Shown: positions 19,942 to 52,701 of the stretch, piece after piece
How positions within the stretch are numbered: the stretch's first letter is position 1
Layout of the letters: each line of letters begins with the position of its first letter
Assembly: GCA_964016885.1 (NCBI GenBank)
Contig: OZ024741.1
Location: 276,396,001 to 276,460,000, forward strand
Origin: Eledone cirrhosa
Lineage: Eukaryota
DNA: 64,000 bases
Direction: 5' to 3'
The notes under the pieces: generated by a model
What the model was told of the DNA's origin: nothing
The model's database searches: none
The model's input: only the letters and a program-made list of their open reading frames with translations
Program-made: the position numbers and the translations under genes

Positions 19942-19986
19942 CTATTAATGACAGAAAATAATCAAGAATATGCAGGGATTTAGTAA

Positions 19987-24080: not shown

Positions 24081-24222
24081 CTAATAACATGACGAGCAAT
24101 CTGTTTATGAAAGATAAAGGATTATGTGAATGTTGACATATCAGTGAGAGACTTGAGGCTGCTGTACGCCGGGTTGATGCAGACGAAGACTTTAGGTTTG
24201 GTAGAAAACTCTTCAGCAATGC
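24081..24222 (-). CDS. HTT: Huntingtin coding exon 6
   Basis: 142 nt. ALLKSFLPNLKSSSASTRRTAASSLSLICQHSHNPLSFINRLLVMLL, aag acceptor, gtgagt donor. Confidence 0.95.
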
Positions 24223-24792: not shown

Positions 24793-26878
24793 ATCATCAT
24801 CATCATCATCATCATCATCAGCGTTTAACGTCCGTGTTCCACGCTTGCATGGGTTTGGACGGGGGTAGTCCCACTTGAGGCAAGAGTGATTGTCTTGCTC
24901 GCATAGGACTGTCTGGCAGGTTTTCTACAGTTGGATGCCCTTCCTAACACCAACCACATTTACAGTGTGGGTCTGGGAGGTTTTTACCGTGTTGCCTACA
25001 CGGCCACATTACAGCGTGGACTGTGTGTTTTTTTGTCGTGACACCTACACGATCTCATTTGTTTCGGCCTCGATGGCGCGGCACCAACATAACTTTACAT
25101 AGAACGGGGTGGTGTGGATCGGGTGGGGGTGGTGGGACGGGGTGTATTTGTTAGAGATGCCTACTGGCTGGAGTAGGTTTTACTATATATTTAGGTAAGG
25201 CGGGTCTTCTCTGTTACTGAGTACCGCCAAAGGTCTCGGTCCAGTGACATTGTCTTGGAGAGGTGTAAGTGTGTGATGTCGGAGTTTATCAGCTCGTCCC
25301 AGGTTTTTCTAGGTCTGCCTATTCCGTGACTACCGTCTATCTTTATTGCCCTGCACTTTGTTATACAGCTATCGACTTTCATGCGCATCACGTGTCCATA
25401 CCAACGTAGCCTTCTCTCGAGTAAACAACATCTGATCCCTCTTATCTCTAATTTATTCCTTAGTTCGTTTATGCTTTGCCGTTCACGTATATTACTGTTA
25501 CACATCCAGCGGAGCATGCAAGCTTCGTTCCTCTCTAGTCTGCGTATATCCTCTGCACACAATGCCCAGGTCTCACTGCCATGCAGCATTGCTGTTCGTA
25601 TGCAGGCATCGTACAACCTGCCTTTCATTTTTAGTGAGAACCCTTTAGCAGCTAATAGTGGTATAAGCTCTCTGAACTTTTTCCAACCAGTTCTGACTCT
25701 AGCTACAGTACTTTCAGAGCACCCTCCCCCACTGCTGATTTTATCGCCCAGGTAACGGAAGCTGTCCACTATTTCTATAGAACCCTCTGCGCAATTGAAA
25801 GAGCTAGTAGTTTGTGGGCACTTGCTGCTACTTATTGCACCAGAGCACCGGCCACATGTAAAATCTATGTTCTTAGTTAGCCTACCTGTGATCCCACTAC
25901 ATCTTTTATGCACCCATACTTTGCATTTAGGACATAAAATGGAGTTTCTACCTACGCCTTTCCTACACACCGAGCACGACCATTTCCCAGAAGGGACCGC
26001 CGCCTTGTTTTCTTTCCTACAAACTAGTACTTTGGTCTTAGCCAGGTTAATTTTAAGTCCTTTTGACTCTAGGCCGTGCTTCCATGTTTGGAATTTCTTC
26101 TCTAGCTCGGCCATTGATTCCGCTATGAGTGTCAGGTCGTCTGCGTATAGGAGTTCCCATGGGCAGCCTGTCTTGAACTCCTCTGTTATGGCCTGAAGGG
26201 CAATAATAAATAGTAGTGGACTGAGAACAGAGCCCTGATGGACGCCGACTTTTACGCTAAACTCTTCACTATATTCGTTGTTAATTCTAACCTTGCTGAC
26301 TGTTTCTTTATACATGGCTTGTATAGCCCTCACAAGCCATTCGTCAACGCCTAGTTTTCTAAGAGCCCACCAGATAATGGAGCGGGGGACTCTGTCGAAG
26401 GCTTTCTCCAAGTCGACAAAAGCTAAGTAGAGGGGTTTACCTTTAGCTAGGTACTTCTCTTGTAGTTGTCGTACTATGAAAAGAGCGTCTGTGGTACTTT
26501 TGCCTGACACAAACCCGAACTGCATTTCATCTAGGTCAATTCTCTCTCTGATTAGCTGCGCTATTACTCTTTCCGTGACCTTCATGACCTGGTCGATTAA
26601 TTTAATGCCTCTATAGTTACTCCTATCTAGGGCGTCTCCTTTACCCTTATAACAGTTAACGATGATGCTGCTATGCCAGTCCTTCGGAACAACCCCGTTT
26701 TGTACGACTTGGTTAACTATGCGGGTGACCATGGTGTGTCCCACCGTGCCAGATGCCTTCAGCATCTCAGCAACTATTTCCGAAGGCCCAGCCGCCTTAC
26801 CAGTCTTCATATCCTTGATTGCCTTACTTATTATACTCCCCTCGACTAACACTGCTGGTCCCTCTATTGGGTCGATAT
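24793..26878 (-). mobile_element. 5'-truncated young RTE LINE with intact RT ORF (553 aa)
   Basis: Uninterrupted RT ORF 25191-26852, 3' UTR and (GAT)n tail. Only about 3 aa differences from the 41669-44550 copy by my reading. Confidence 0.96.
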
Positions 26879-27427
26879 GATATATATATAGCGTGGAAGA
26901 TAGATGTTAAACGATGATGATGATAATGATGATATATTTATATATATAAATACATTTTTTTTAAAAAAGATTTTAACTTCAATTTGTTATTCTTTTCTTT
27001 TTCATTACTTTTTTTACAATTTACTGCAAATATTTAATATAAATTACAATTATTTCAGTTTTACAATACAAGAGCTACAAGGTGGTGGTGTCAGTGTTAT
27101 TGTTGGTGATGGTCATGGTAGTAGTGGCATCAGCAGCAGTGACACTCATTGCAAAGACATGCTGTTGTTGTTGATGGTGGGAGGATATGAGGAGAGTGAA
27201 GAGGTGAGAAAGGGTGAGGAGGAGAAAGGAGGAGAGATAGCTAGGAAGAGAGAGAGTGAGAGAGATGTAGAGATGAGTAGACAGAGGGAAGTACAGGAGG
27301 AGAAAGCGAGAAGAATGAGAGGAGGAGAGAGTGGAAACAAGAGGTAAAAGAAAGAGAGAGAGAAGTGTGGGAGGAGAGAGGGGGATGGAGAAGAGAGGAT
27401 GAGAGTGGAAAGAAGAGGTAGGAGGGA

Positions 27428-27670
27428 GAGACAGAGGAAGACAACAAAAAACCAGAGAGAGACAGGAAGACAACAAAAAACCAGAGAGAGACAGGAAGAC
27501 AACAAAAAACCAGAGAGAGACAGGAAGACAACAAAAAACCAGAGAGAGACAGGAAGACAACAAAAAACCCAGAGAGAGACAGGAAGACAACAAAAAACCA
27601 GAGAGAGACAGGAAGACAACAAAAAACCCAGAGAGAGACAGGAAGACAACAAAAAACCCAGAGAGAGAGA
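27428..27670. repeat. About 29-30-bp minisatellite (CCAGAGAGAGACAGGAAGACAACAAAAAA)
   Basis: About 8 copies, immediately downstream of the exon 5 donor. Confidence 0.9.
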
Positions 27671-27680
27671 TGTTTCTTAC

Positions 27681-27819
27681 TTTGACTTCTGAATCATTTG
27701 CAAAAGCCATGAGTACAGGACATATTTTCTGCATGGAAGCTGCAAGTGTTTCTTGTATGGCTTCTTCTTCACGCTTACAAACCCGTGCTATACAAGGCAG
27801 CAAGTTAACAATATACGGT
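27681..27819 (-). CDS. HTT: Huntingtin coding exon 5 (human exon 6 equivalent)
   Basis: 139 nt. [46 protein letters not shown], donor gtaaga. Confidence 0.96.
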
Positions 27820-28786
27820 CTGTAAAAGAAGGAAGGAAGGAATGGTAAAAAGATGGATAACAAGTTTTAGTGGTAGTTTTACACAATTGTAGAAAAGATG
27901 TGTAACATCATTTGTATGTACTACTACCTAGAGATTTGAACTCAGAGAGAAGACAGCCAGAAGGAATACTGCAAAGTATTCTATCTGATGTTCTAACAAC
28001 TCTGCCAATTCACTGCCTTGTCACATTTACACAAGGTTAAAAATATTTCAAGTTTCTCACAGATGTTGTTGTGTGGTAGAGAAGTTTAAACCAGCCGTAT
28101 CCTGTCAGAATTTTTTCACCCCCTTCTGTTCAAACTGGCTGTAACCGGCAACCCACACTAATGTTAAGGTATTGTTCTCAAAATAAATAATATCAAAATC
28201 TCATAGATTCAATATATGCGAGATAATTATATAAGGTAAAGCCCTTACCATGACAATACAATAGTAAATATAGAGTAATGTAAATGGTATGTAAGATATT
28301 ATGTGTGGTAAAGTCTTTACCATGAAAATATAATAGTAAATATAGAGTAATGTAAATGCTAAAGAAGTTTATTTTGTTACCATGTAGTCCTGGGTTAAAT
28401 TCCCTATGTGGAAGGTTTCACAAGTGTTTTGGACTATAGCAGTAATTCAACTAAAGACTTGAGAGTGAAATTTGATATTTGATGGGTGGAAATTGTGTGG
28501 AAGTCTTCAAATGTGAATGTATGTGTGGCTGTGTGGGTGTGCATATCTGTGCGTGCGTATCTGTGTGGATGTACGTGTCTGTACGTGTGTGAGTGCATGC
28601 ATGTCTGTATGCATGCACGTGTGTGTATGTGTGTGTGCGTGCGTGCATGTGTGGTTATGAGTGTGTGTGTGTGTGTGTGTGTGAGTGGTTGTGAGTGAGA
28701 GTGGTTGTGAGTGAGAGAGTGAGAGAGAGGGTGTGTATGTGCATATAAGTGTGTGTGCGTGTGTGTGTATGCGCGCGCGCGTGCGC

Positions 28787-28833
<47 letters not shown>

Positions 28834-28876
28834 TGTGTGTGAGTGAATGTGAGCATGTATGAGTGAGTGAGACTGT

Positions 28877-28907
<31 letters not shown>

Positions 28908-29131
28908 GAACTGATCTATGATCAAAGACAATCTAGCCATCAGAATACCATCTTTCTTCAGTACATATATCTCGGGCTACATTATGCAATGCGTAGTTCC
29001 ATTATTAAAGATGGTAATGTGGGAGTTGTGGCAGATTTGGCTGTTATTTCTAGCTGGTTGTTCAACCGCATAAGGACTCCCTCAACTGTGGTTCACTGCT
29101 ACATCATACATTGTATATACATTCACTAGAG

Positions 29132-29443
29132 CAGTGGTCGCCAACCTTTCAGACCACACAGACCACTAAATTCATAATGTTAAATATCTGCGGACCACCA
29201 ATAAGAATTTTTTTAAAAAGATAAATACTTTGTAAAATAAGGATCAGAGAACTTCCATTTTATTAATATTAAATGCACCTATTAAAACATTTTTAGGCAG
29301 TTATAAAATATATTTTAACCGAATATTATTTATGTTTTATTAATAAAACATAAAAATAGCAAATAATGTCCAAATTTTAATGCAAACCACCAAAATTTTC
29401 TCGGACCACCAGTGGTCCACAAACCACCAGTTGGTGACTGCTG
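29132..29443. mobile_element. hAT/Charlie-like MITE
   Basis: CAGTGGTCGCCAACC ... GTTGGTGACTGCTG termini with an 8-bp TSD CACTAGAG / CATTAGAG. Confidence 0.85.
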
Positions 29444-29468
29444 CATTAGAGCATGTAAATTCACATAC

Positions 29469-29608
29469 CTGCATTTCTGTGGACGTATTAAATGGCACAT
29501 GTCACCAAATCTCCATAGTGCCCCTCTAAGACTTCGAGAGGGACCATTTTTCTTGATCTCCTTGTAAAGTTCCACCTGCAAGCGGCCCAAGTTTGTTTCT
29601 AACAGAGT
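29469..29608 (-). CDS. HTT: Huntingtin coding exon 4 (equivalent to human exons 4+5)
   Basis: 140 nt. [46 protein letters not shown](R), near-identical to the human HEAT region. Confidence 0.97.
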
Positions 29609-30040
29609 CTGGCAAGAAATACACAGAAATAATAGACAATAACTTTTGTGCTTGTTTACACATTTTATACATCATTATCATCATCATTTAACATCCATTT
29701 TCCACGCTGGCATGGGCGAGACGGGTTGTCCCGTTGTGAGGCAAGCCAGATCTGATAACCATGACTTGCTCATACAGGACTGATTTTGGCTTGGTTACTA
29801 TGGCTGGATATATATATATATTGGTGTCATGACAAAAAGCACCTAGCCCACACTGCAAAGCACCCAACACATACTGTAAATGTGGTTGGCATTAGTAAGG
29901 GCATCCAGCCGTAGAAATCTAGCCAGAAACAGTTCTGTATGAGCAAGACGCAGTCACCTACACAACTTGCCTCTAATGAGACAACCTGTCTAACCCATGC
30001 TAGAATGGAAAATGGACATTAAACAATTATGAAGATGGTT

Positions 30041-30086
<46 letters not shown>

Positions 30087-30661
30087 TAGTGTAAACAAAG
30101 TTTCATACACTGAACATGTGCTACCAATGGTTTCGCAGTTCAGTCATGGTTACCACTGTATAATGGAAGAGGTACTTTTAAACTGGCCATACATTCAGGC
30201 ACGTGGACGAATGAAGGACCTGTTTAAAAGTGTCTTCTCCATTATACAGTGGTGGCTAGAATTGGACTCCGAAACCATTTGTAGCACATACATGTTAAGT
30301 GTATGAAACTTTGTCTCCATTCCAACAGATCGAGCACAGTTTTCCTTGATCTTTCATCTATGGACTTCTACCAACGAATATGTATAAATATCATCCTCAT
30401 CATTTAACGTCTATCTTCCACACTAGCATGAGTTACCTGGCTTTGTCCCACTTGAGGCAAGTTGGGTCGGCTGACCGTGTCTCGCTTGTATAGGACTGTC
30501 TCTAGCTGGTTTTCTACGGCTGGATGCCCTTCATCATCATTATCATTGTTTAACATCCATTTTCCACGCTAGCATCTGTATGTGGTTGACGATTGAGAGA
30601 AAGGAGTACTCAATACCGAAGTAGAGTTTTAACATTCATTTTATTAAGGCTAAATAGTGAG

Positions 30662-30711
30662 TCTTGTTACTCTGGAGTTTCACCTGTTTATCACAGGGTC
30701 ATCAGATAAGA
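30662..30711 (-). ncRNA. Type I minimal hammerhead-ribozyme-like motif (Penelope pLTR/retrozyme-like), possibly degenerate
   Basis: Minus strand TCTTAT-CTGATGA-C-CCTGT-GATAA-ACAGG-T-GAAA-CTC-CA-GAG-TA|ACAAGA has the full core and all three stems. AATAAA follows about 15 nt downstream. Confidence 0.7.
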
Positions 30712-30940
30712 ACCTACCCTGAAAATAAGCCCTTGTGCCTTTTTTTTTTGAGAGAGAGAGAGAAAAATAATATCAGACCTGTCCTTATAATAGGGGAAAC
30801 ACAGAGCTAAGCTGAAAATAAACAACAACAACCACCACATGCCCATGAAGATCTCAACATATAGGACTACCTTCTCTTAAACAAATGATTGTTTTTTTGT
30901 TTGTTTTTTTTATACAGAAAACAAACAAAATAATGTCTAC

Positions 30941-31061
30941 CTTAATGGTCTTATTGAGGCATTCATCAGCAACCATACGAATATCAGCTTCAGGGTCATC
31001 ACAGAGCATTAGAAAGGTTTCCATAGCTATTCCAAGGAACTTTGGAAAATCTGCTATAGAT
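30941..31061 (-). CDS. HTT: Huntingtin coding exon 3
   Basis: 121 nt, AG/GT bounded. [40 protein letters not shown] versus human [40 protein letters not shown]. Confidence 0.97.
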
Positions 31062-32151
31062 CTGAAAGAAAAAAAAAACAGAAAAGAAATTAGACAGACT
31101 TAATGACTAATGTATCAGGGCAAGGGACAACAACAGATTAGAAAAATGTTTGACTGTAATGAAAAGGTTTTCCTCTCAGCATTGGTCCAGTTATTACTAT
31201 CTCATTGGAGCCTCTACATCATTACTCGACCTACAAGAAATAGTACCTAAATCTCAAAAGTATACCCTGCTATCTCTAACAGGCTGGATACCTTGCACAA
31301 TATAGTATTAGACTTTTTTTAATACAGGATGGCCAGAACGTTCAACATAACAGGTAGCCAACGTACATGTTGTAACCATTATCTGTCACCTCTAGGGCAA
31401 TGGATTGGCAGTAATTGGTAGAACATCAGACATGCTTTGTGGCATAGTTACGTCCTTTTACATTCTAAGTTCAAATTATGGCAAGGTTAGCTTTGACTTT
31501 TATCCTTATGGGGTAAAATAAAGTTCCAGTAACGCACCAGGGTCAATTTAATCAACTTTTCCCTGCACCACCAAATTGCTGGCCTTGTTCCTAAATCAGA
31601 AACCATTATCTTTTCCCTCTACTGCTGCTACAACAGTTTCTGTTCATCCAAACTGAGTACCATCTCAGCCCAAACTCAGTCCCCAATGCCCAGAGCTCTC
31701 CTCTTCCCATTCATTTTCCCAACACTGACTCCAAAAAACTAGAACACCTCTCTTGTTCATGTTTTTGCCTGTAAATATAAAATGATAAAATTTTAAAGGG
31801 AAAAGAATTGAGCCAGTGCAAAAGTTCAAACAAAAGAAGGGGGTCACTTGAACTGCTTGAAATAGTAACTGGTTTTAATCAGATGCTCTACCAGTTCTGC
31901 CAGACAACACATAACTGTCCAGTGTATCAGCTACTAGTTGATAATACATAGGAGAGTTTTCACACACACACTTCGTCCTAGAATCACTTTACTATATAGT
32001 TGTTAAACAACTGTTTCATAGCTTTCTCTCCAATCATTGACTTAATTATAAAATCTAAACATTTTTAAAACAGCTGATAATTAGGCCAGCCACAATGGCA
32101 CTGGTAATGACAAAACAAACGAAGAATTCCATCTTTATGTAATCCAAGCGT

Positions 32152-32225
<74 letters not shown>

Positions 32226-32681
32226 GTGAGTGAGTGAGTGAGCGAGCGTGCATTTGACTGGTATGTATTTCATTAAGTTTTCACCCACCCAGAGGAATAA
32301 AGGACCAACTCCAGCCCAGTGAGATTTGTGTTCGGGATGAAGAGTGGCACTAATTAGTTTTATACACTTCAACTGATGTTCTACCATTTCACCCCTTCAT
32401 CCAAAACAACAAGCCTACAAATGAGCCTTTAAACAATCATACAACCATGCTAGAAATATTAACCAAATCTCCTTCAAATCACACCCTAATGATTTTTACA
32501 AAAATGGGATGACATTAAACCCTAAGGCTATGCACCAACAACAAGCTTAACAATATACTAACCACATTTTGTGCACAATACAATCTTCCATCGCATTACA
32601 ATAAACTTAACAATATATCATCATTTAGCATCCATTTTTCCATGTTTGCATGGGTTAGACAGGATAAAAAAAAAAGGAAAT

Positions 32682-32788
32682 GGTTACAGCACCTAGGTTT
32701 CCCAAGCAGTCACCCAGCCAAGTACTAGCTAGGCTCAAAGTTGCTTAACTTCGGTGATCGGATGAGAACCAGTGTTTTCAGCATGATA
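32682..32788 (-). pseudogene. 5S rRNA pseudogene (5'-truncated) with downstream T-run
   Basis: Minus strand ...TCTCATCCGATCACCGAAGTTAAGCA...GCTAGTACTTGGCTGGGTGACTGCTTGGGAAACCTAGGTGCTGTAACC followed by T10. Matches metazoan 5S with substitutions; the first ~11 nt are missing. Confidence 0.85.
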
Positions 32789-32790
32789 CA

Positions 32791-32950
32791 CATATTTGGT
32801 GCACAGATACAATCCACCATCACATTACAACAAACTTAATGTACTAACCGCATATTTGGTGCACAGATACAATCCACCATCACATTACAACAAACTTAAT
32901 GTACTAACCGCATATTTGGTGCACAGATACAATCCGCCATCACATTACAA
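32791..32950. repeat. 60-bp tandem duplication of the exon 2 3' end plus donor
   Basis: CATATTTGGTGCACAGATACAATCC(A/G)CCATCACATTACAA at 32791, 32851 and 32911. A diverged copy lies at about 32555-32610. Confidence 0.92.
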
Positions 32951-32992
32951 TTGATCATTTTATCTTTTTTACTTGGAAGGGGCTCCTTTTTC
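32909..32992 (-). CDS. HTT: Huntingtin coding exon 2
   Basis: 84 nt, ttttcag|G...CG|gttagt. Encodes KKEPLPSKKDKMINCNVMADCICAPNM(R), similar to human [28 protein letters not shown]. Confidence 0.93.
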
Positions 32993-33279
32993 CTGAAAAA
33001 TAAATTAAAAAAACAAATGTTTATTATAATACTTATAAGAAATATTGAATTATATTGGTTTCCACCTGTTTACGGTGGAGCCGATAACTTTATTAGAACT
33101 ATGGTTTCAGCAAGATTAAGCAGTGAGTACTATAGTTTTTGAGGTTTACTTGAAGAATCTGCTCAAGTTACAGAATCATTTTTATGTATGTGCATGTTCA
33201 ACAATGAAAATAAAACAAAAGTCAGAGATAGGTGGTTAATTAGTTTTACAATCAGTAGATAGTATCAGTAAGTGGAAAG

Positions 33280-33510
33280 ATTAATGGAAAACATTGTTTC
33301 CTTAATCTGATCTGGCAAGTAACATTGGTAGATAGAGACCAATGGAAACATTGTTTCCTTGATCCAATCTGACAAGTCCCATTGATAGATAGCAATTGGA
33401 AAGACCAATGGAAACATTGTTACCTTGGCCTGATCTGACAAGTACTACTGGTAGATAGTAATTGGAAAGACCAATGGAAACATTGTTTCCTTGGTCCAAT
33501 CTGATGAGTT
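33280..33510. repeat. About 60-66-bp degenerate tandem repeat
   Basis: GACCAATGGAAACATTGTTTCCTTG motif, 4 copies. Confidence 0.8.
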
Positions 33511-33628
33511 TCGCCTCAATCGGTAAGCAAATGGAGGTCTGAAATCATGTCAATTCATAAAAAAAAATATGGATATATATATATCATCATTTAATGTATA
33601 TTTCCAATGCTAGCATGGGTTAGACAGT

Positions 33629-33667
<39 letters not shown>

Positions 33668-33968
33668 ATAAGATACTGGAATTTCTCCATGGCGATTCAC
33701 TGCAAGCGCTCAACTTGGGAAGGAGCAAAATAATTGGTGTGGGATGCTTAAAAGCAGCCTACCATATACGGACGCTTTAAACATCCCACACCAATTATAT
33801 ATATCATCATCGTTTAAAAGTCTATCTTCTATGCTAGCATGGGTTTTGACAGGAATTGACCCACTTGAGGCAAGATTGGTCGGGTGACCGTGTCTCGCTC
33901 GTATAGGACTGGCAGGTTTTCTACGGCTGGATGCCCTCCCTAACAACAACCACATTTACAGTGTGGAC

Positions 33969-34005
<37 letters not shown>

Positions 34006-35520
34006 GCTATGCAACCATGTGGTTTGGTTGTCCAACGTGTGTTTTGGCCAGTATTATTGTTGTAATTTATAGTTTTACTTAAATTCATCAACAGTTCCGT
34101 TGAGCTTCTGCTTTTGATGCAGTATTTTGGATTGTAGTGTGAATTTCAACCTCTTAAAAATATTAGCCATTTTATAGTCGACCTCATACATTTAACCTCA
34201 ACTAACAGTCTAAATAATTCGACCTTTACATGAATATATACGTTACTTAAAGATGTCTGATTAGCAATTAGAAGTGTTTTCTGCAATCTTCTTTATTACC
34301 ACCATCTGTTTTCTGTTTTTTCTTCTCTCTCGCTCTCTACCAAATAACCTTCCTTCTATCTGTCTTTCTGTATTTATCTTCTAATGAAAGGCTAACATCT
34401 CAAATGTTAAAACTCTTTATACTAATATACCATTATTGTATTGTGGTCTTTTCTGGTACTATTTTTTTACTTTCATGTATGTGTGTGTATGTATATATAT
34501 ATATATATATTCATTAGTTAAGCAAAACAAGACCACAAATTTCACAAGGAAGACATTATTAAAAGATTGTCAACATATTTTAGTTTGATGTAAGGAATGT
34601 AGAGAATAATAATAATAATAATAATAATGTCCGTTTACAATTGTTTCGCTACTCCATATATTTCTGGATCAAATGATTATATATCATTATTGATCTGGTT
34701 CAGTTGAAAATAATTAACATAGGTAAAAATAGAGCAGCTCATCGGAACTTCAAAGGAATATAAATTAAAATAAGGAAAGAATGTTACATAAATGTAATGT
34801 TCCATATATTGGTATTTCACTATGGTGTCCTGGGTATTATATGGTGTCCAGCATTTTATAATAAAGGCTCTTTCTGAATCTGGTTATGAACAGTCCATTT
34901 ACTACATACCTAAATGCCATAACACAGCAATTCACCACAACCATAATAAACTTAACTCTAGAACTAGAAATACCTTAGCATATAGCCAGATTCGCCGGAA
35001 TTTTAGCAGTAACAGCACTTATATAGATAGATAGATAGATTTACATACATATACAAACACAGACACACACACATATATACACACGTGTGTGTGTGTTTGT
35101 GTATGAGTATTTTGTGTATATAGGGGTATACAGTATATGTAAGAATAAACACCCATGTACATAGGTGTCAAACTATGTGTTTTTGCCTATATTGAGTTCC
35201 AGCAGAGAGCAAGGTAAGAGAGCACTGTCTTGATAACAACAAGATTCAGAAACAATGTTGTCCACAGTTACCCAACCTTTGATTCTGCTGCAATCCACTA
35301 GGTGACGCTACATCATCAGTTTCCAAATTCATAGCTGAAGGCTTTCAAAATGTTTATTTGTAAACATACTGTATATCATTAGATATACAAAATACTCCTA
35401 CTTGTATGTATACAGCTATGTTAGAGTGAACACCTTAATATATATATATCCAAAACCATAGGGGGAGTTCGTGAACAAACAGACGGGAACTACAACTTTA
35501 TGTGTGTATATATATATATA

Positions 35521-37725
35521 TGTTCAGGATTGGTAGGCAATGTGTCAAGGAAAACCGTGATATTGTCGGGGAGAAGTGTGTCCCTAATGATGATGGTGTA
35601 CTTGCCATCACTGACGCTGATAAGAAGGTAGCTTGGAAGTGTCACTACGAAAGGCTACTAAATGAGGAGAATAAATGGAAGAAAGAGTCTCCCCCACATC
35701 GATCCAATAGAGGAATCAGCAGTGCAAGTTGAAGGTAGTATAATAAGTAAGGCATCAAAGATATGAAGACGGGCAAGGTGGCTGGGCCTTCCGAAATAGT
35801 TGCTGAAATGCTGAAAGCATCTGGAACGGTGGGACACACTATGGTCACCCGGATAGTAAACCAAGTCATACAGAATGGGGTTGTTCCAAAGGAGTGGCGT
35901 AGCCACATTATCATTAACTGCTACAAGGGTAAAGTAGATTCCCTAGATATGGGAAACTATAGAGGCATTAAATTAATTGACCAGGTCATGAAGGTCACAG
36001 AAAAAGTAATAGCGCAACTAATCAGAAAGCGAATTGATATAGATAAAATGCAGTTCGGGTTTGTGTGAGATGCTCTTTTCATTGTACGACAACTACAGGA
36101 GAAGTACCTAGCTAAAAGTAAACCCCTATACTTAGCTTTCGTTGACTTGGAGAAAGCCTTTGACAGAGGCCCACGCCCCATTATCTGGTGGGCTCTCAAA
36201 AAACTAGGTGTTGATGAATGGCTTGTGAGAGCTATACAAACCATGTATAAAGAAACAGTCAGCAAGGTTAGAATTAACAACGAATATAGTGAAGAGTTTA
36301 GCGTAAAATTGGTGTTCATCAGGGCTCCGTCCTTATCCCCCTCCTATTTATTACCGCCCTCCAGGCTATAACAGAGGAGTTCAAGACCGGCTGCCCATCG
36401 GAACTTCTATACGCAGATGATCTAACTCTCATAGCTGAATCAATGGCTGAACTAGAGAAGAAATTCCAAAATGGAAGCATGGCCTATAATCAAAAGGCCT
36501 TAAAATTAACTTGTCTAAGACTAAAGTTCTAATATGTAGGAAGGAAAATAGGGCACTGGTCCCATCTGGGAAATGGCCATGCTCAGTGTGTAGGAAAGGA
36601 GTAGGCAGAAACTCCATTTTATGTCCCAAATGCAAAGTATGGGTGCATAAAAGATGTAGTGGGATCACAGGTAAGCTAACTAGGAATATAGATTTTATAT
36701 GTGGCCGGTCCTCAGGTGCAATAAGTAGCAGCAAATGCCCACAGAATACTAGCTCATTCCATTGCCCAGATGGTTCTATAGAAATAGTGGACACCTTCCG
36801 TTACCTGGATGACAAAATCAGCAGTGGTGGAGGGTGCTCCGAAAGTACTGTAGCTAGAGTCAGAACGGGATGAAAAAGTTCAGAGAGCTTATACCATTAT
36901 TGGCCGCTAAAGGTTTCTCTCTAAAAATGAAAGGCAGGCTGTATGATGCCTGCATACGAACAGCGATGTTACATGACAGTGAGACATGGGCCTTGTGTGC
37001 AGAGGATCTGCGCAAACTGGAGAGGAACGAAGCTTGCATGCTCCGTTGGATGCGTAATAGTAATATACACGCATGGCAAAGCATAAATGAACTAAGTGAG
37101 AAATTAGGAATAAGAGGGATCAGATGCTGTTTACTCGAGAGAAGACTATGTTGGTATGGTCATGTGATGCGCATGAAAGACGACAGCTGTAAAAAAAAGT
37201 GCAGGGTGATCAAAATAGACAGTTACGGAGTAGGCAGACCCAGAAATACCTGGGACGACTTGATAAATTCTGACCTCGCACACTTACACCTCTCCAAGAC
37301 AATGTCACTGGACCGAGATCTTTGGCGCTATGCAGTAATACAGAAGACCCGCCTTGCCTAAGTACAAAGCGAAACCTACAGTCAGTAGGCACCTCTTAAC
37401 CAAAATACACCCCCGTCCTACCGCCATCCACACCACCCCTTTCGATGTAAAGCTATGTTGGTACCACAACATCCAGTCCTAAATAAATGAGGTCGTGTAG
37501 GTGTCATGACAAAAAAAAAACCACAGTCCACGCTGTAATGTGGCCATGTAGGTAACACGGTAAAAACCTTCCAGTCCACACTGTAAACGTGGTTGGTGTT
37601 AGGAAGGGCATTCAGCCATAGAAAACCCGCCAGACAGTCCTGAGCAAGACAACCAATCTTGCCTCAAGTGGGACAATTCCCGTCCAGACCCATGCTAGCG
37701 TGGAATATGGACGTTAAATGATGAT
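35521..37725 (+). mobile_element. Older degenerate RTE LINE copy
   Basis: Same family as 41669-44550 with frameshifts and stops. Starts at (TA)n and ends in a GAT tail. Confidence 0.93.
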
Positions 37726-37763
37726 ATACATATATATACACATATACATATATACATACATAT

Positions 37764-37800
<37 letters not shown>

Positions 37801-37803
<3 letters not shown>

Positions 37804-38404
37804 GGTGGCTGCCAACTCGTTTTCGAGTACGGCCACTACTTTATATCCATGTAGGAGAACCCCTACCAATGCGCTGAACGAATGTGACTTTTTAGTCCAG
37901 CCAGCGACTTAAACTCTGGTACAAACACTACACTTGTGACAATTATTGACATAGTGCTGGGCCCATGGTACCATGTGACGACAAGTGCAGAGAGATCTCC
38001 AGATATAAAGCAATGCCTGTGCTGTGAAGCTTTTATAGTGAGCAAAGGCACTGCACAAAGCCAGTCCCACTCTCTTAACCAAGATGATATTTACCAAAAA
38101 GAAGAACAATTCAACATCATTGGATACCATCAGGGTTGCAGGTGTTATATCAGAGTTTTCCTTCTCCTAGAATTCTGCCTTGACAAAGGCTAAGGGGTCA
38201 TCTCTCCCGGTGATTTTGGATGGCTATTGACTCTTAAGAGCCCCTTTGCCTTTTGACAGGTTTTGTTTTTAGTCCTGCAGGATGTCCAAAGCCACCCTCC
38301 TCACCAAGAAACCTTGGTGGGGTTGCCAGTTTAGTCGCCAACGACCGGACCATGAGACAGGTTGTACTGGGATACATGTTACCAGTAGCACCAACTGGTG
38401 ACCT

Positions 38405-38405
<1 letters not shown>
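37801..38405 (-). mobile_element. Short non-autonomous RTE-type element (5'-UTR-like end joined to a C-terminal C2H2 finger and 3' end)
   Basis: Minus strand encodes a frameshifted CSVCTR.FKSLAGLKSHIRSAHW* C2H2 finger and an RTE-like 3' end (CTCGAAAACGAG hairpin). The 5' part contains GCGACTAAACTGGCAACCCC. Flanked by (CA)n on both sides. Confidence 0.55.
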
Positions 38406-38461
<56 letters not shown>

Positions 38462-38462
<1 letters not shown>

Positions 38463-39732
38463 CATTGCCCACAATACTTATGCTGTGCCAATTCTAACGC
38501 CAACATTTGGACTACTGAACTGGTCATTGCAAGAACTAAGTGAGATGGATGTTAGAACTCGAAAACTTCTCAGTGTTACTGGGAACTTTAACATCAATGG
38601 TGATGTGGATAGGCTATACTTCTCACGCAAGGAAGGTGGCCGGGGTCTAAAATCAATATTAACAACATATGAGACCCGGATAGTGACACTGAAGCAACAC
38701 CTTCAACAGAGGAAAAAGGTTGGCAACCATCTTGCCCAGGTTTATGAACATGAAAAAAGAAATATCATTAGAATAGCGACTGATCTGGAGGAGAGATATG
38801 GAATAAAGCCTGATATAAATCTCTCACCCAGAGAAATCGGAAGATCCTATTCAATGTTCAAACAAGATAAAAAAATTGACCAATTTACAGAAAAGGTTGT
38901 GCATGGATACTTGAGGCGTGAAACACAGACCATAGAGGGGATAAACCACTCAAAAAGCCTGGCATGGAGTTCCGACAAGTTTATGACATCACACCTTGAG
39001 GGATATCTCTATGCAATACAGGAACAAGAACTCCCTACCAAATATCTGCTGCACAAAAGAGGAGGGCCAGCAGCTGACAATAAATGTAGGCTATGTAAAA
39101 CAAAGATCGAGGATGTAAGCCACATTGTTGCCAGCTGCGAAAGAATGTCATCTCGCTACTACCTCCCCATGAGACACGATGGGATAGCTAGAACCATCTG
39201 GAACGCACTTCGGAAAACAAAATTAACAACAAACGAGGAAGAATATATTGAGACAGATGGCACTAAGGAATACTGGTGGAACCTGAAAATAAAAACTGCC
39301 ACCAAATTAAAGCACAACCGGCCTGATATTGTAGTTTGGGACCACACATTGAAAACGTGTTCTGTTGTGGAGATCAGCTGCCCACTTGATGTAAACGTTG
39401 TCAGAAAAATACAGGAGAAGGAGGACATCTACGGACCATTGATGAGGAGTTTACAAATCCAGTATCCAAGATACACCTTTAGCTTCATACCCATCATTAT
39501 TGGTGCTACGGGTTATATACCAACCCGCTTGGACCAAAGTATGACTGAACTTGGATTTGCGGACAAAAAGCGCAGCTCCCTAATTCATAGTCTACAAATG
39601 GCTGCGATAGCTAGCACCTTCAAAATTTGCAAAACATTCTTGCGATTCAAGGGATGACAATTTCTTTTCTTTTACAACCTTGCCACCAGGAAGGTGGCCG
39701 GTCAAAAAAATATACTCGAAATTAAGAGAAAA
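38462..39732 (+). mobile_element. 5'-truncated RLE-type non-LTR retrotransposon (R4/Dong-like)
   Basis: 390-aa open frame with RLYFSRKEGGRGL, a CCHC knuckle (CRLC..SHIVASC), RHD, and a restriction-like endonuclease motif RPDIVVWD..VVEISCP..KEDIY..PIIIGATG. Confidence 0.9.
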
Positions 39733-39839
39733 CATACATACATATATACATACACACATATATATATACACACATATACACATATATACACATATATACA
39801 TATATATATATATACATATACACATATATACATATATAC

Positions 39840-39888
<49 letters not shown>

Positions 39889-40093
39889 CATATATACATA
39901 TATATATACACACATATACATATATACATATATATATACACACATATATACATATACATATATATATATATACATACACATATATACATACACATATATA
40001 TATACACATATATATATACACATATATATATACACATATATATATACACATATATATATACACATATATATATACACATATATATATACATAC

Positions 40094-40124
<31 letters not shown>

Positions 40125-40137
40125 CATATATATATAC

Positions 40138-40220
<83 letters not shown>

Positions 40221-40319
40221 CATATATATACATATACATATATATACATATACATATATATACACATATATATATATATATATACATATATATACATATA
40301 CATATATATACATATATAC

Positions 40320-40382
<63 letters not shown>

Positions 40383-40450
40383 CATATATATATATACATA
40401 TATATATATATACATATATATATATACATACATATATATATATATACATA

Positions 40451-40491
<41 letters not shown>

Positions 40492-40532
40492 ATACATATA
40501 TATATATACATACATATATATATATATACATA

Positions 40533-40573
<41 letters not shown>

Positions 40574-40614
40574 ATACATATATATATATACATACATATA
40601 TATATATATACATA

Positions 40615-40674
<60 letters not shown>

Positions 40675-40726
40675 CATATATATATATACACATATATATA
40701 TATATACATATATATATATACATACA
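39733..40726. repeat. About 1-kb (TA/CA)n compound microsatellite
   Basis: Directly visible. Confidence 0.97.
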
Positions 40727-41418
40727 TCATCATCATCATCAACGTTTAACGTCCGTGTTCCACGCTTGCATGGGTTTGGACGGGGGTAGTCCCACTTGAG
40801 GCAAGAGTGATTGTCTTGCTCGCATAGGACTGTCTGGCAGGTTTTCTACAGTTGGATGCCCTTCCTAACACCAACCACATTTACAGTGTGGGTCTGGGAG
40901 GTTTTTACCGTGTTGCCTACACGGCCACATTACAGCGTGGACTGTGTGTTTTTTTGTCGTGACACCTACACGTTCTCATTTGTTTCGGCCTCGAAGGCGC
41001 GGCACCAACATAACTTTACATAGAACGGGGTGGTGTGGATCGGGTGGGGGTGGGGGTGGTGGGACGGGGTGTATTTTGTTAGAGATGCCTACTGGCTGGA
41101 GTAGGGTTTACTATATATTTAGGTAAGGCGGGTCTTCTCTGTTACTGAGTACCGCCAAAGGTCTCGGTCCAGTGACATTGTCTTGGAGAGGTGTAAGTGT
41201 GTGATGTCGGAGTTTATCAGCTCGTCCCAGGTTTTTCTAGGTCTGCCTATTCCGTGACTACCGTCTATCTTTATTGCCCTGCACTTTGTTATACAGCTAT
41301 CGACTTTCATGCGCATCACGTGTCCATACCAACGTAGCCTTCTCTCGAGTAAACAACATCTGATCCCTCTTATCTCTAATTTTTTCCTTAGTTCGTTTAT
41401 GCTTTGCCGTTCACGTAT
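40727..41418 (-). mobile_element. Short 5'-truncated young RTE LINE (3' 0.7 kb)
   Basis: Near-identical to the 3' ends of the 24793-26878 and 41669-44550 copies. Confidence 0.95.
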
Positions 41419-41550
41419 ATATATATATACATATATATATATACATACATATATATATATACATACATATATATATATACATACATATATATATACATAT
41501 ATATATACATATATATATATACATATATATATATATACATACATATATAT

Positions 41551-41613
<63 letters not shown>

Positions 41614-41668
41614 CATATACATATATATACATATATATACATATATATACATATATATACATATATAT

Positions 41669-44550
41669 AACACTAACTGTAACACTAACTTCAAAAAACG
41701 TGACAATCACCTGATCACCTATAGATCCGGGGAACACACAAGCCAGGTAGATTATATCCTTACCAGATGACGTGACAGAGTGTCTGTTGTTAACACTAAA
41801 TCCCTCCCCCATGAAGAATGCACCTCCCAACATAGACTGATAATTAGCGACCTCATAGTCAGGACGAGACGTACTCGACAACAGAAGAGGACTATCCTCA
41901 GGAGAAAAATATGGAAGCTAAAGGACCCCACAGCCAGGAATAAATTTCAAAACATATTACTTGATGCTTTCGACAGTAAGGAAGAACATTTAGAGTCGGA
42001 CAATATAGAGGGAGAGTGGGAATTTCTGAAAGCAAACCTGCTGTTGGCGACAGACGAAGTCTGTGGCTGGAGCAGGCCTGTAGGCAGGAGGAGAGTAACA
42101 TGGTGGTGGAACAGTAAGGTGGAGGGGTCAATTAAGGCCAAAAAGCAGGCTTGGAAAGTATGGCGGGATGGGGGAAGTAGAGAGGACTATCAAGTGGCCA
42201 GGAGGGAAGCTAGGAGACAAGTGTACTTAGCAAGAAGGGAAGCTGAGGAAAGAAAGTTCAAGCATGTTCTACAACGCGATGACCAAAAACGTGAGGTGTT
42301 CAGGATTGCTAGGCAATGCGTCAAGGAAAACCGTGATATTGTCGGGGAGAAGTGTGTACTAAACGACGATGGCACACTTGCCATCACCGACGCTGATAAG
42401 AAGGTAGCTTGGAAGTGTCACTATGAAAGGCTACTAAATGAGGAGAATAATTGGGAGAAAGGCAGTCTCCCCCATATCGACCCAATAGAGGGACCAGCAG
42501 TGTTAGTCGAGGGGAGTATAATAAGTAAGGCAATCAAGGATATGAAGACGGGTAAGGCGGCTGGGCCTTCGGAAATAGTTGCTGAGATGCTGAAGGCATC
42601 TGGCACGGTGGGACACACCATGGTCACCCGCATAGTTAACCAAGTCGTACAGAATGGGGTTGTTCCGAAGGACTGGCATAGCAGCATCATCGTTAACTGT
42701 TATAAGGGTAAAGGAGACGCCCTAGATAGGAGTAACTATAGAGGCATTAAATTAATCGACCAGGTCATGAAGGTCACAGAAAAAGTAATAGCGCAACTAA
42801 TCAGAGAGAGAATTGACCTAGATGAAATGCAGTTCGGGTTTGTGTCAGGCAAAAGTACCACAGACGCTCTTTTCATAGTACGACAACTACAGGAGAAGTA
42901 CCTAGCTAAAGGTAAACCCCTCTACTTAGCTTTTGTCGACTTGGAGAAAGCCTTCGACAGAGTCCCCCGCTCCATTATCTGGTGGGCTCTTAGAAAACTA
43001 GGCGTTGACGAATGGCTTGTGAGGGCTATACAAGCCATGTATAAAGAAACAGTCAGCAAGGTTAGAATTAACAACGAATATAGTGAAGAGTTTAGCGTAA
43101 AAGTTGGCGTCCATCAGGGCTCTGTTCTCAGCCCACTACTATTTATTATTGCCCTTCAGGCTATAACAGAGGAGTTCAAGACAGGCTGCCCATGGGAACT
43201 CCTATACGCAGACGACCTGACACTCATAGCGGAATCAATGGCCGAGCTAGAGAAGAAATTCCAAACATGGAAGCACGGCCTAGAGTCAAAAGGACTTAAA
43301 ATTAACCTGGCTAAGACCAAAGTACTAGTTTGTAGGAAAGAAAACAAGGCGGCGGTCCCTTCTGGGAAATGGTCGTGCTCGGTGTGTAGGAAAGGCGTAG
43401 GTAGAAACTCCATTTTATGTCCTAAATGCAAAGTATGGGTGCATAAAAGATGTAGTGGGATCACAGGTAAGCTAACTAAGAACATAGATTTTACATGTGG
43501 CCGGTGCTCTGGTGCAATAAGTAGCAGCAAGTGCCCACAAACTACTAGCTCTTTCAATTGCGCAGAGGGTTCTATAGAAATAGTGGACAGCTTCCGTTAC
43601 CTGGGCGATAAAATCAGCAGTGGGGGAGGGTGCTCTGAAAGTACTGTAGCTAGAGTCAGAACTGGTTGGAAAAAGTTCAGAGAGCTTATACCACTATTAG
43701 CTGCTAAAGGGTTCTCACTAAAAATGAAAGGCAGGTTGTACGATGCCTGCATACGAACAGCAATGCTGCACGGCAGTGAGACCTGGGCATTGTGTGCAGA
43801 GGATATACGCAGACTAGAGAGAAACGAAGCTTGCATGCTCCGCTGGATGTGTAACAGTAATATACGTGAACGGCAAAGCATAAACGAACTAAGGAAAAAA
43901 TTAGAGATAAGAGGGATCAGATGTTGTTTACTCGAGAGAAGGCTACGTTGGTATGGACACGTGATGCGCATGAAAGTCGATAGCTGTATAACAAAGTGCA
44001 GGGCAATAAAGATAGACGGTAGTCACGGAATAGGCAGACCTAGGAAAACCTGGGACGAGCTGATAAACTCCGACATCACACACTTACACCTCTCCAAGAC
44101 AATGTCACTGGACCGAGACCTTTGGCGGTACTCAGTAACAGAGAAGACCCGCCTTACCTAAATATATAGTAAAACCTACTCCAGCCAGTAGGCATCTCTA
44201 ACAACATACACCCCGTCCCACCACCCCTGCCCCCACCCCATCCACACCACCCCGTTCTATGTAAAGTTATGTTGGTGCCGCGCCATCGAGGCCGAAACAA
44301 ATGAGATCGTGTAGGTGTCACGACAAAAAAACACACAGTCCACGCTGTAATGTGGCCGTGTAGGCAACACGGTAAAAACCTCCCAGACCCACACTGTAAA
44401 TGTGGTTGGTGTTAGGAAGGGCATCCAACTGTAGAAAACCTGCCAGACAGTCCTATGCGAGCAAGACAATCACTCTTGCCTCAAGTGGGACTACCCCCGT
44501 CCAAACCCATGCAAGCGTGGAACACGGACGTTAAACGTTGATGATGATGA
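41669..44550 (+). mobile_element. Young RTE LINE truncated within the APE endonuclease; RT with inserted PHD-like finger
   Basis: APE C-terminal motifs (TYRSG..SQVDYIL, SQHRL) with one TGA at 41768-41770, then a 793-aa open RT frame (YADD), 3' UTR and (GAT)n tail. Confidence 0.96.
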
Positions 44551-46969
<2,419 letters not shown>

Positions 46970-47924
46970 ACTAGACATGAAAAATGCGCAAGCTCAAAAG
47001 TGCCACAGAATGTTATAATAAACCTTCAAAAGTGTGGGACTAGAGTTGTTGCTAAAAAATATTGTAATCATTATATATCGTACATTCTGTGGCATCCTTT
47101 ATAAAAATAGCTTAAACCAACGAAGCCTTTATTTTTACGCTATTTCACTTAGTTAATTCTTAGAGTGTAACATATAAAAATATGATTTACAACTATAAAA
47201 TAAATAAATTAATATAATAACAGAGCTGCGGAGCTGAAATTTAGGAAATAATGGAGTATCGGATCCTGAGTTGGAGCCAGTCAATTTTTGGCCGACTCCG
47301 CAGCCCTGTATAATAAATTTCATATTAAAGTTATTAATAAACCTATTTTACACTGCATGCAAATTACCATGAGATATTGATATTAGATATAAGATACAGC
47401 GCAATATCTACAGCTGTAAAAGTACGAAAGCGAAGTAATAATAAGTGGCTTAAGGTAATTCCAATATGAAAGTTTGTAGTGATAAAAATTTGATAATGCA
47501 ATACGATTGTTAATATTATAGTTCTATGAAAATGTAACAATAGATAACTAAATTATTTTACTATTAGTATATTTAAGAAATTATCATTATAGATTTGATC
47601 GTTCATATAAGCATCATATTAATTTTCAACACAATTATTTTGTTACTATGAGTATATGATAATAATTACGTAATTATTTATAGCTGTTATTACATTAAAC
47701 ATAGATGTATTTATTTTTATATGTTACACTCTAAGAATTAACTAAGTGAAATAGCGTAAAAATAAAGGCTTCGTTGGTTTAAGCTATTTTTATAAAGGAT
47801 GCCACAGAATGTACGATATATAATGATTACAATATTTGTTAGCAACAACTCTAGTCCCACACTTTTGAAGGTTTATTATAACATTCTGTGGCACTTTTGA
47901 GCTTGCGCATTTTTCATGTCTAGT
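46970..47924. mobile_element. Foldback/MITE-like element with about 213-bp terminal inverted repeats
   Basis: 46970-47182 is the near-perfect reverse complement of 47712-47924. The interior is AT-rich and non-coding. Confidence 0.8.
47221..47308. mobile_element. Minimal 88-bp hAT MITE nested in the foldback element
   Basis: CAGAGCTGCGGAG ... CTCCGCAGCCCTG TIRs with a perfect 8-bp TSD TATAATAA. Confidence 0.85.
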
Positions 47925-49117
47925 TTAATATTTTTTTTAAGGCAACGCTTGTAATAACACTAGTTAAACAGGATATATATTAATAATAAATTATCGTTGT
48001 AATGTAATTAGATTATGTAATTGTTATTATAAATTATCTTATAAATATTAGTGTAAGATGTATAAAAATATTTTCAGACTTTTAATATAAACAACTACAA
48101 AAAACAATCAATATTAAATCAATATATTATACATAATAGAAAACATAAAATAAACAATACAAAAACAAAATATTTACATACAATTGCAATTATCAGTGTA
48201 TATACATTTTCTTTATATTCCCTGAGCAAATTAATAAGATTTGTTTTTATTGTACATAATTTGATGACTTGTTGGAGTGTATTAAAAGATAGCAACAATT
48301 TGTGATTAAATTGTTATCTTAAGCAACTCACTTTTTAATAGTTGTTGGCTGAGCGAAATTGTAAAAGCCTATGAGCAAATATAAAAAAAAATACACAAAC
48401 AACATTTCCTTGTGTTATTACAACATTAGATAAAATAATTGAGCAATGTCGTTATATTTTGCTCTTATTGCACATTAATAGTGTTTCTATTTTTCGGCAC
48501 AAATCCATTACGGCAGTCCATTACTGGTACTTTATTTTATCGAATTAGTAAGTATGAAAGTCGAAGTTAACCTCGGCAGGATTTGAACTTAGAATGCAAA
48601 GGACCATAACAATACTGCAAAGCATGGTGTCTGACGCTCTACCAATACTTGTGTTGAGCTGGTCATTAATTTATGGTGGTCGTGCGTGGAGTAGAGCAAT
48701 CGCTAGTTGAAATATTATGAACAAAACATTTTTATTTGCCGAAGAACATATTTTCAATACTGTTTGTGAATGTGACGAAGGAAATACATTCTGATATGGA
48801 ACAGTGTACAAAGTGTGTCTGTGAATAACATAATGTTACCTCATGTTGTTGTCAAGACATAATGGATTTCGTATATCCAATTAGAAGATGAAACCTAACC
48901 ATCTCGGATTAGTTATATTTCATGCCATGTGTAAACGTGTTTGAGGATAGCAAAATATGCGTGTTTCTTGTCTGGAAACTTTCTGCTAAACTGATTGGTT
49001 TCGTTTTTGGCACTATACAATACTCATCTAACAGATAGCTGTATTGGATCCTTGATTGGTTAATATTTAGGTGAGGGTGCTTGATTCAGAGTTAGTGCAA
49101 AATGGATCAATGAGTGT

Positions 49118-52582: not shown

Positions 52583-52701
<119 letters not shown>

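What the first reader, a model, noticed from the sequence alone, without database searches (positions are those of the whole stretch)
24793..44550. Near-identical inverted RTE LINEs bracket exactly the 484-nt exon block equivalent to mammalian circHTT(2-6)
Seen: a young RTE copy on the - strand (24793-26878) sits about 0.8 kb downstream of exon 5. Copies on the + strand sit in intron 1 (35521-37725, older; 41669-44550, about 3 aa differences over 553 aa). In the pre-mRNA they could form about 2 kb of near-perfect duplex enclosing exons 2-5 (84+121+140+139 = 484 nt). Established: these exons correspond to human HTT exons 2-6 (84+121+60+80+139 = 484 nt, sizes from memory), a circHTT(2-6) RNA has been reported in mammals, and inverted intronic repeats drive back-splicing. 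Inference: a cephalopod may make the same circle using unrelated lineage-specific LINEs, or skip this block. The duplex would also be a prime ADAR substrate in a lineage known for heavy A-to-I editing.
Basis: partly seen in the sequence, partly recalled or inferred. Interest (0 to 1): 0.8.

Follow-up and report, generated by a model that had tools for sequence, protein, structure and literature searches.

The report
Young inverted retrotransposons bracket huntingtin exons
In an octopus huntingtin gene, two nearly identical, oppositely oriented copies of a recently spread retrotransposon enclose the same 484-base block of exons that mammals turn into a circular RNA, most likely by chance, and no circle has yet been shown to form.

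Summary
The anatomy is real. The gene is octopod huntingtin (- strand). Four exons (84+121+140+139 = 484 nt) map without gaps onto the stretch of human HTT that forms circHTT(2-6). A 2.07-kb RTE-type LINE in the downstream intron is 98.8% and 86.4% complementary to two copies in the upstream intron: the strongest of 595 intron pairs in the assembled gene. But the bracket is very young and ordinary for this family: a 32-mer of it occurs 3,688 times in the genome, the downstream copy is identical over 2,072 nt to a copy on another chromosome, and 4 of 20 sibling copies have an equally long inverted partner nearby. The mammalian circle was not confirmed in chicken or zebrafish, and Octopus vulgaris makes few circles. 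Most likely a coincidence of insertions into a long TA-rich intron, with at most a by-product circle (about 1 in 5 that it is readily detectable). No RNA could be examined. A cheap, clean test remains: divergent RT-PCR in animals with and without the insertion.

The parts
58362..58461 (-). HTT exon with the start codon ('exon 1'); preceded by a polypyrimidine/AG acceptor, so an untranslated exon upstream is likely
   Evidence: upstream exon inferred only
32993..58361 (-). Intron 1, 25.4 kb, 28% of the summed length of the 35 assembled introns, 3.4 times the random density of (TA)5+ runs
41669..44560 (+). RTE copy C: 5'-truncated (796-aa open frame, most of the endonuclease missing), flanked by TA-rich arrays; 98.85% to A over 2,079 nt
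40720..41420 (-). RTE copy D: 692-nt 3' fragment, 98.8% to C, opposite strand, same intron; competing partner for C's 3' third (loop 2,440 nt)
35521..37740 (+). RTE copy B: older, broken frames, 86.4% to A; its pairing arm ends 2,702 nt from the exon-2 acceptor, the geometrically better partner
32909..32992 (-). HTT exon 2 (84 nt); acceptor is the would-be back-splice acceptor
32791..32950 (-). 60-bp tandem (2.7 copies) duplicating the end of exon 2 and its donor; second donor after 32849 would add a stop codon
30941..31061 (-). HTT exon 3 (121 nt), human residues 122-158 matched
29469..29608 (-). HTT exon 4 (140 nt), human residues 160-204 matched; equals human exons 4+5 by recalled sizes
27681..27819 (-). 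HTT exon 5 (139 nt), human residues 206-251; donor is the would-be back-splice donor
24794..26879 (-). RTE copy A in intron 5: 5'-truncated, (GAT)n tail, 99.0-100% identical to 20 copies on contig C1; sits between two older repeat tails
24081..24222 (-). HTT exon 6 (142 nt), human residues 253-297 matched; first exon outside the bracket
18671..19944 (-). Older related RTE in intron 8, 74-76% to B and C: second-ranked cross-intron match, would bracket exons 2-8

Best explanation
The bracket is most likely a chance product of a recent retrotransposon burst: copies of a several-thousand-copy RTE family piled up in huntingtin's long, TA-rich first intron, one very recent copy landed in the opposite direction in intron 5, and any circle of exons 2-5 would be a trace by-product without function. 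Shown: exon block, copies, their identities and orientations, family size, preference for TA-rich sites, frequency of inverted partners. Inferred: C is transcribed first and would fold on D within intron 1; B and the free 1.4 kb of C could pair with A only if intron 1 is still unspliced when A emerges 6 kb past exon 2; ADAR would destabilise whatever pairs; linear splicing would usually win.
For: 3,688 exact hits of one 32-mer, 1,842 +/1,846 -. A is 99.0-100% identical to 20 of 20 siblings examined and has no difference from L144 over 2,072 nt (siblings were picked for identity to 301 nt of A), under about 0.4 million years at the 0.0036 per million years used in PMC13282606 (rough). 4 of 20 siblings have an inverted partner of >=1.5 kb at >=95% within about 13 kb, 3 of 20 a direct one: some 370 such pairs if extrapolated. 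11 of 19 readable siblings have TA-rich 3' flanks vs 226 of 5,000 random places; intron 1 is TA-rich and by far the longest. Without A, intron 5 offers only <=259-nt, 68-85% matches to intron 1. C:D predicted about -1,400 kcal/mol with a 2.4-kb loop. circHTT not confirmed in chicken or zebrafish (PMC11225910). 296 high-quality circRNAs in O. vulgaris. Shared mammalian circles described as convergent by-products of young transposons (PMC8516420).
Against: Intron pair 1/5 is the top-scoring of 595 pairs (3,639 bits vs 877 for the next cross-intron pair), so sequence-based prediction would pick exactly this circle. D blocks only a third of C; 1,387 nt stay free (about -2,800 kcal/mol with A) and B:A is predicted at about -3,160. 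For this one named block the coincidence is unlikely: empty intron 5 is 2.2% of introns 2-35, and the joint chance of the layout is 2e-5 to 2e-2 depending on the local density assumed. Distance does not forbid back-splicing: the human circle spans 20.5 kb (coordinates). No RNA was examined.
Confidence: 0.7

Rival explanations
1. The insertion of A switched on a readily detectable 484-nt circle: A pairs with B (donor 0.8 kb and acceptor 2.7 kb from the stem) or with the free part of C, and exons 2-5 back-splice. It would be convergent with the mammalian circle, allele-dependent and probably non-adaptive.
For: Best cross-intron match in the gene, 2 kb long, with eight perfect runs of >=100 bp for A:C; canonical splice sites and a very long upstream intron; engineered flanking complementary sequences raise circle levels (PMC5052039 passages); young species-specific repeats flank shared mammalian circles.
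Against: Few circles in octopus, attributed to ADAR; competing C:D and D:B pairs inside intron 1 (that intra-intron pairing lowers circle yield is recalled); stem far from the acceptor; each circle costs one HTT mRNA.
Confidence: 0.22
2. An exon 2-5 circle is older than these copies, made because the first intron is long or through RNA-binding proteins and short older repeats, and may be shared among cephalopods; the young LINEs are incidental or only boost it.
For: Boundaries and length of the block are the same as in mammals; nine short inverted matches exist between intron 5 without A and intron 1.
Against: Those matches are short and diverged, and 122 of 595 intron pairs have some inverted match; the circle was not confirmed in chicken or zebrafish; the word huntingtin does not occur in the four O. 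vulgaris supplementary files searched, though the list of 296 circles was not seen.
Confidence: 0.05
3. The duplex loops out exons 2-5 and promotes skipping, lowering huntingtin dose through nonsense-mediated decay.
For: Skipping 484 nt shifts the frame and puts a stop at codon 32, 132 nt before the next junction, a classic decay signal (established knowledge).
Against: Four-exon skipping over strong constitutive sites is rare (recalled); a very young insertion is unlikely to be a tuned control; huntingtin loss is expected to be harmful (inference).
Confidence: 0.03

Closest known systems
circHTT(2,3,4,5,6) / circHTT(2-6), hsa_circ_0001392 (PMC11225910, PMC10177161)
   Same: Same 484-nt stretch of the huntingtin coding sequence, long repeat-rich upstream intron, reverse-complementary repeats on both sides.
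   Different: Four exons instead of five; flanking repeats are RTE LINEs, not Alus; downstream intron 3.5 kb (1.4 kb without A) vs 7.9 kb human and 4.2 kb mouse; no polyglutamine tract in the first coding exon; no circle shown; not inherited from a common ancestor as far as the repeats go.
Circles driven by reverse-complementary matches of young, species-specific transposons (Gruhl et al. 2021, PMC8516420)
   Same: Young lineage-specific repeat dimers in introns of a long, GC-poor, exon-rich gene, flanking constitutive exons of an orthologue that circularises in other species.
   Different: That study covers five mammals with RNA evidence; here the distance is mollusc to mammal, the arms are 2-kb LINE bodies, and there is only DNA.
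RTE-2_OV and the active RTE of O. bimaculoides (Petrosino et al. 2022, PMC9115989)
   Same: Single long frame with endonuclease and reverse transcriptase (1,081 aa here, 1,109 aa there), recent activity in octopuses, insertion polymorphism reported for the O. bimaculoides element.
   Different: Pfam calls a PHD finger after the RT here, the paper names a C2H2 finger; no sequence comparison was possible, so the same family is not shown.
Inverted Alu pairs as ADAR substrates (Bazak et al. 2014, PMC4066801)
   Same: Oppositely oriented intronic retroelement copies in one pre-mRNA.
   Different: Arms are seven times longer, but A's partners are 8.8 and 15.6 kb away, far beyond the 800-bp decay scale measured for Alus; whether that scale holds for 2-kb arms in octopus is unknown.

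Membership tests
circHTT(2-6) equivalent | Same exon block, 484 nt | tested here: met
   total from PMC11225910; the 5' boundary is inferred by counting back, exon 2 gave no PDB hit
circHTT(2-6) equivalent | Canonical acceptor and donor at the block ends | tested here: met
   AG before 32992, GT after 27681
circHTT(2-6) equivalent | Long flanking introns on both sides | tested here: inconclusive
   25.4 kb upstream, 3.5 kb downstream; human 11.9/7.9 kb, mouse 20.6/4.2 kb, authors' filter >7 kb
circHTT(2-6) equivalent | Reverse-complementary repeats across the flanking introns | tested here: met
   top of 595 intron pairs
circHTT(2-6) equivalent | Back-splice junction in RNA, RNase R-resistant | not testable with these tools
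   needs RNA reads of this species; none were available to lay
circHTT(2-6) equivalent | Shared ancestry of the circularising arrangement with mammals | tested here: not met
   copy A identical to a dispersed sibling; circle not confirmed in chicken and zebrafish
circHTT(2-6) equivalent | Upstream CAG tract whose length tracks circle level | tested here: not met
   first coding exon has a single glutamine codon
RTE-clade LINE | Single frame with AP endonuclease and reverse transcriptase | tested here: met
   sibling L147: 1,081 aa, PF03372 + PF00078
RTE-clade LINE | Short 3' untranslated end with a microsatellite tail, variable 5' truncation | tested here: met
   (GAT)n tails in 19 of 20 siblings (one ends at a gap), varied 5' ends; feature list recalled
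RTE-clade LINE | Placement in the RTE clade by RT phylogeny | not tested
   79 homologues found, none named RTE; the label rests on architecture and recalled motifs
ADAR hyper-edited duplex | A-to-G clusters in RNA over the arms | not testable with these tools
   needs RNA reads anchored in unique flanks

The most novel reading that the evidence does not exclude
An octopus makes a huntingtin circle with the very boundaries of the mammalian one, switched on within the last few hundred thousand years by a single LINE insertion that may still segregate: the same circular RNA re-invented in mollusc and mammal from unrelated repeats, with a natural on/off allele and coleoid ADAR as its brake.
Probability: 0.2. 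Interest if true: 0.6.

Novelty: new member of a known kind. Interest (0 to 1): 0.3.

Why it matters
If the circle exists and depends on copy A, it extends the 'convergent by-product' model of circRNA origin from mammals to a mollusc, with exact boundary identity, and offers a natural experiment on whether 2-kb LINE duplexes can overcome high cephalopod ADAR activity. It would also caution against reading cross-species recurrence of circHTT as proof of function. If absent, it shows that even the strongest intronic match in a gene need not yield a circle in an octopus. As it stands it is a well-defined, inexpensive prediction, not a discovery.

Tried and rejected
RNA evidence: no RNA holder listed; the three runs offered (X1-X3, one sample, one study) behave as genomic DNA, with contigs running through exon-intron borders, so no back-splice, skipping or editing test was possible. 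Empty-site test for copy A: no joint across A among the rows shown (363 not shown, rows at the simple repeats dropped), and no cover at 24770-24802 in the narrower call: uninformative, presence/absence variation is open. Contig depths over the RTE were not used as copy number. Homologue search with exon 9 found nothing (length limit excludes full-length HTT). Exon 2 alone had no PDB match. In one search the first exon was cut one base off, so its linear, skipping and alternative-donor frame results are void; one search replaces them (the intron-pair table and circle length are unaffected). Rejected: A and C as a local duplication or conversion pair (A is closer to dispersed siblings, 0-7 substitutions, than to C, 17); C+D as one 5'-inverted insertion (both hold the same 3' end); selection for inverted orientation (inverted 4-5 vs direct 3 of 20; 4 vs 4 of 23 random blocks at >=1 kb, >=95%). 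Literature: no paper on a cephalopod huntingtin circle among those listed (15 of 475; 20 of 39; 15 of 1,278; 'htt' also matches web addresses); the O. vulgaris circRNA list itself was not seen in the supplements searched and could bear on rival 2. No paper on TA targeting by RTEs among the 3 listed. Earlier findings for this genome: none.
Full report
1. What is there. The window lies in a 3.0-Gb genome. On the - strand it holds the 5' part of huntingtin: the predicted first 237 residues are 98.7% identical, without gaps, to the Octopus sinensis protein, 91% to the next hit and at most 79% to the named gastropod and bivalve proteins among the 40 compared, so the animal is an octopod. Two exons searched give one match each in the genome. 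Thirty-five exon matches run from 58447 to about 33 kb beyond the window start; an assembly gap follows and C-terminal matches lie on another small contig. Exact exons: 58362-58461 (start codon), 32909-32992, 30941-31061, 29469-29608, 27681-27819, 24081-24222; they read in one open frame. The middle four sum to 484 nt. Exons 3-6 align without gaps to human residues 122-158, 160-204, 206-251 and 253-297, which places the block at residues 91-251 by counting back; that human exon 1 ends at residue 90 is recalled. The human circle is 484 nt, exons 2-6 (PMC11225910, passages and section 7 part 1).

2. The repeats. Copy A (-, 24794-26879) lies in intron 5, 801 nt from the donor. Intron 1 holds B (+, 35521-37740), D (-, 40720-41420) and C (+, 41669-44560). 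A:C is 98.85% over 2,079 nt, A:B 86.4% over 2,069 nt, C:D 98.8% over 692 nt. A sibling copy has one 1,081-aa frame with endonuclease, reverse transcriptase and a PHD finger; siblings end in (GAT)n and are variably 5'-truncated. That is RTE architecture; the clade label itself was not tested by a tree. Among 595 intron pairs of the assembled gene, 122 share some inverted match and pair 1/5 is by far the strongest (3,639 bits; next cross-intron pair 1/8, 877 bits).

3. Is it more than chance? One 32-mer of the family occurs 3,688 times, evenly on both strands. Copies cluster: none at >=95% in 23 random 50-kb blocks, but among the first 100 hits on contig C1 there are 9 pairs within 20 kb against 3.3 expected, 3 of them inverted. 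I took 20 of the 40 copies listed as identical to 301 nt of A and read about 13 kb on each side: 4 of 20 have an inverted partner of >=1.5 kb at >=95%, 5 of 20 of >=0.9 kb; direct partners 3 of 20. Extrapolated, several hundred such pairs exist (about 370; rough). Clustering has a visible cause: 11 of 19 readable siblings are followed by TA-rich arrays against 226 of 5,000 random places, and intron 1 has 3.4 times the random density of TA runs and 28% of the gene's intron length. So a partner in intron 1 is expected. That the other copy fell in intron 5 is the real coincidence: 2.2% by length; the whole layout has a prior chance of 2e-5 at genome-average density and 2e-2 at the local density. 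In a scan of a whole genome this is absorbed: if a third of 370 pairs straddle exons and 2% match the main circle of the mammalian orthologue, two or three cases are expected (my assumptions, not measured); human HTT alone has 89 catalogued circles.

4. Age. A differs from the 20 siblings by 0-7 substitutions and is identical to L144 over 2,072 nt. At the rate used in PMC13282606 (0.0036 per million years, passages) that is under about 0.4 million years; B, at 237 substitutions in 2,069 nt, is tens of millions of years old by the same rough scale. Before A arrived, intron 5 offered only short, 68-85% matches to intron 1. The long bracket is therefore recent and private to this lineage, perhaps to some alleles (inferred; the test failed, see Tried and rejected). 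Active, polymorphic RTEs are reported in octopuses (PMC9115989, passages).

5. How it would work. In transcription order C comes first, then D 2.4 kb on, then B, exon 2, and A 6 kb after exon 2. Predicted duplex energies (block-wise, kcal/mol): C:A about -4,200, B:A -3,160, free part of C:A -2,800, C:D -1,400, D:B -980. Thermodynamics favours the cross-intron stems, kinetics the local one, and cross-intron pairing needs intron 1 to remain unspliced. B, not the near-perfect C, brings the splice sites closest (0.8 + 2.7 kb against 0.8 + 9.5 kb). Flanking complementary sequences promote circles and compete with one another (PMC5052039, passages); the human circle spans 20.5 kb, so distance is no bar. 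Against: O. vulgaris total RNA from 18 tissues gave 296 high-quality circles, mostly tissue-restricted, attributed to ADAR (PMC9699675, passages and supplement file 2); cephalopod editing outside coding regions falls largely on repeats (PMC9068888, passages); Alu editing, a proxy for pairing, decays with a scale of about 800 bp (PMC4066801, abstract and section 9). Skipping the block gives a stop at codon 32. None of these steps was observed here.

6. Compared with what is known. It works like a transposon-dimer bracket of the kind that yields convergent, mostly non-functional circles in mammals (PMC8516420, abstract and Discussion). It is not shown to be circHTT: the defining junction is untested, shared ancestry is not met (young repeats; circle confirmed in six mammals but not chicken or zebrafish; mouse orthologue also in PMC10177161, passages), and there is no CAG tract.

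7. Verdict. Observation confirmed; interpretation partly supported. Most likely (0.70) a chance arrangement with no or trace circle; 0.22 an insertion-dependent, detectable convergent circle; 0.05 an older circle; 0.03 skipping with decay. New member of a known kind; interest 0.3 now, about 0.6 if the circle is found and follows the insertion.

Noticed in passing
window 32791-32950: A 60-bp tandem (2.7 copies, 99%) duplicates the end of exon 2 with its donor; using the second donor lengthens the exon to 144 nt and brings a stop at codon 61. A possible decay-coupled alternative donor; not checked in reads.
   Followed up: partly
L017:1614-1813 and G000:C1295:43983-52991: Huntingtin is split in the assembly: matches stop at about residue 1,950 before a 200-N gap, and C-terminal HEAT matches lie on a small separate contig. 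Repeat pairs beyond the gap were left out of the intron table.
   Followed up: partly
window 58461-58480: The start-codon exon is preceded by a polypyrimidine tract and AG after a TA run, so an untranslated first exon upstream is likely; the exon numbers used here would shift by one, and an older + strand RTE (58584-60401, 69% to A) would be intronic.
   Followed up: no
L141-L160; window 39734-40720, 41416-41669, 44560-46970: The young RTE family sits preferentially in TA-rich arrays (11 of 19 vs 226 of 5,000), often kilobases long and with the same higher-order pattern on both sides. Targeting or array growth after insertion is open.
   Followed up: partly
G000:C1:85471-61431249: Neighbouring young copies share strand more often than chance (61 of 99, shuffle p = 0.012), with a long run of - copies between 6 and 12 Mb: an insertion bias tied to replication or transcription direction is possible.
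   Followed up: partly
L015:1772-3860 and L002:1195-2353: Two copies in which a 5' part is inverted against the 3' part with abutting coordinates, resembling twin-priming inversions described for L1 (label recalled).
   Followed up: no
window 2688-3590 and 3846-4042: A 923-bp imperfect palindrome with a transposase-like helix-turn-helix frame (3129-3503; resemblance recalled) and a 198-bp palindrome, both in one HTT intron.
   Followed up: no
window 38407-39657 and 53005-54042: Two further long frames in intron 1: one with a zf-RVT domain, one without a Pfam hit; probably remnants of other retroelements.
   Followed up: partly
window 61638-64000 (to 66616 in L061), 15992-17199, 11839-13572: Large minisatellites: 49-bp unit (about 5 kb), 51-bp unit (24 copies, 97%), and a GT-rich 12/24-bp array inside HTT introns or upstream.
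   Followed up: no
G000 contigs C1-C6: Four contigs of 379-443 Mb followed by 135 and 103 Mb: unusually large chromosomes for an octopod, suggesting fusions (or scaffolding).
   Followed up: no
window 27681-32992 (as a circle): A 484-nt circle would carry start-codon frames across the junction of up to 174 residues; mechanical result only.
   Followed up: no
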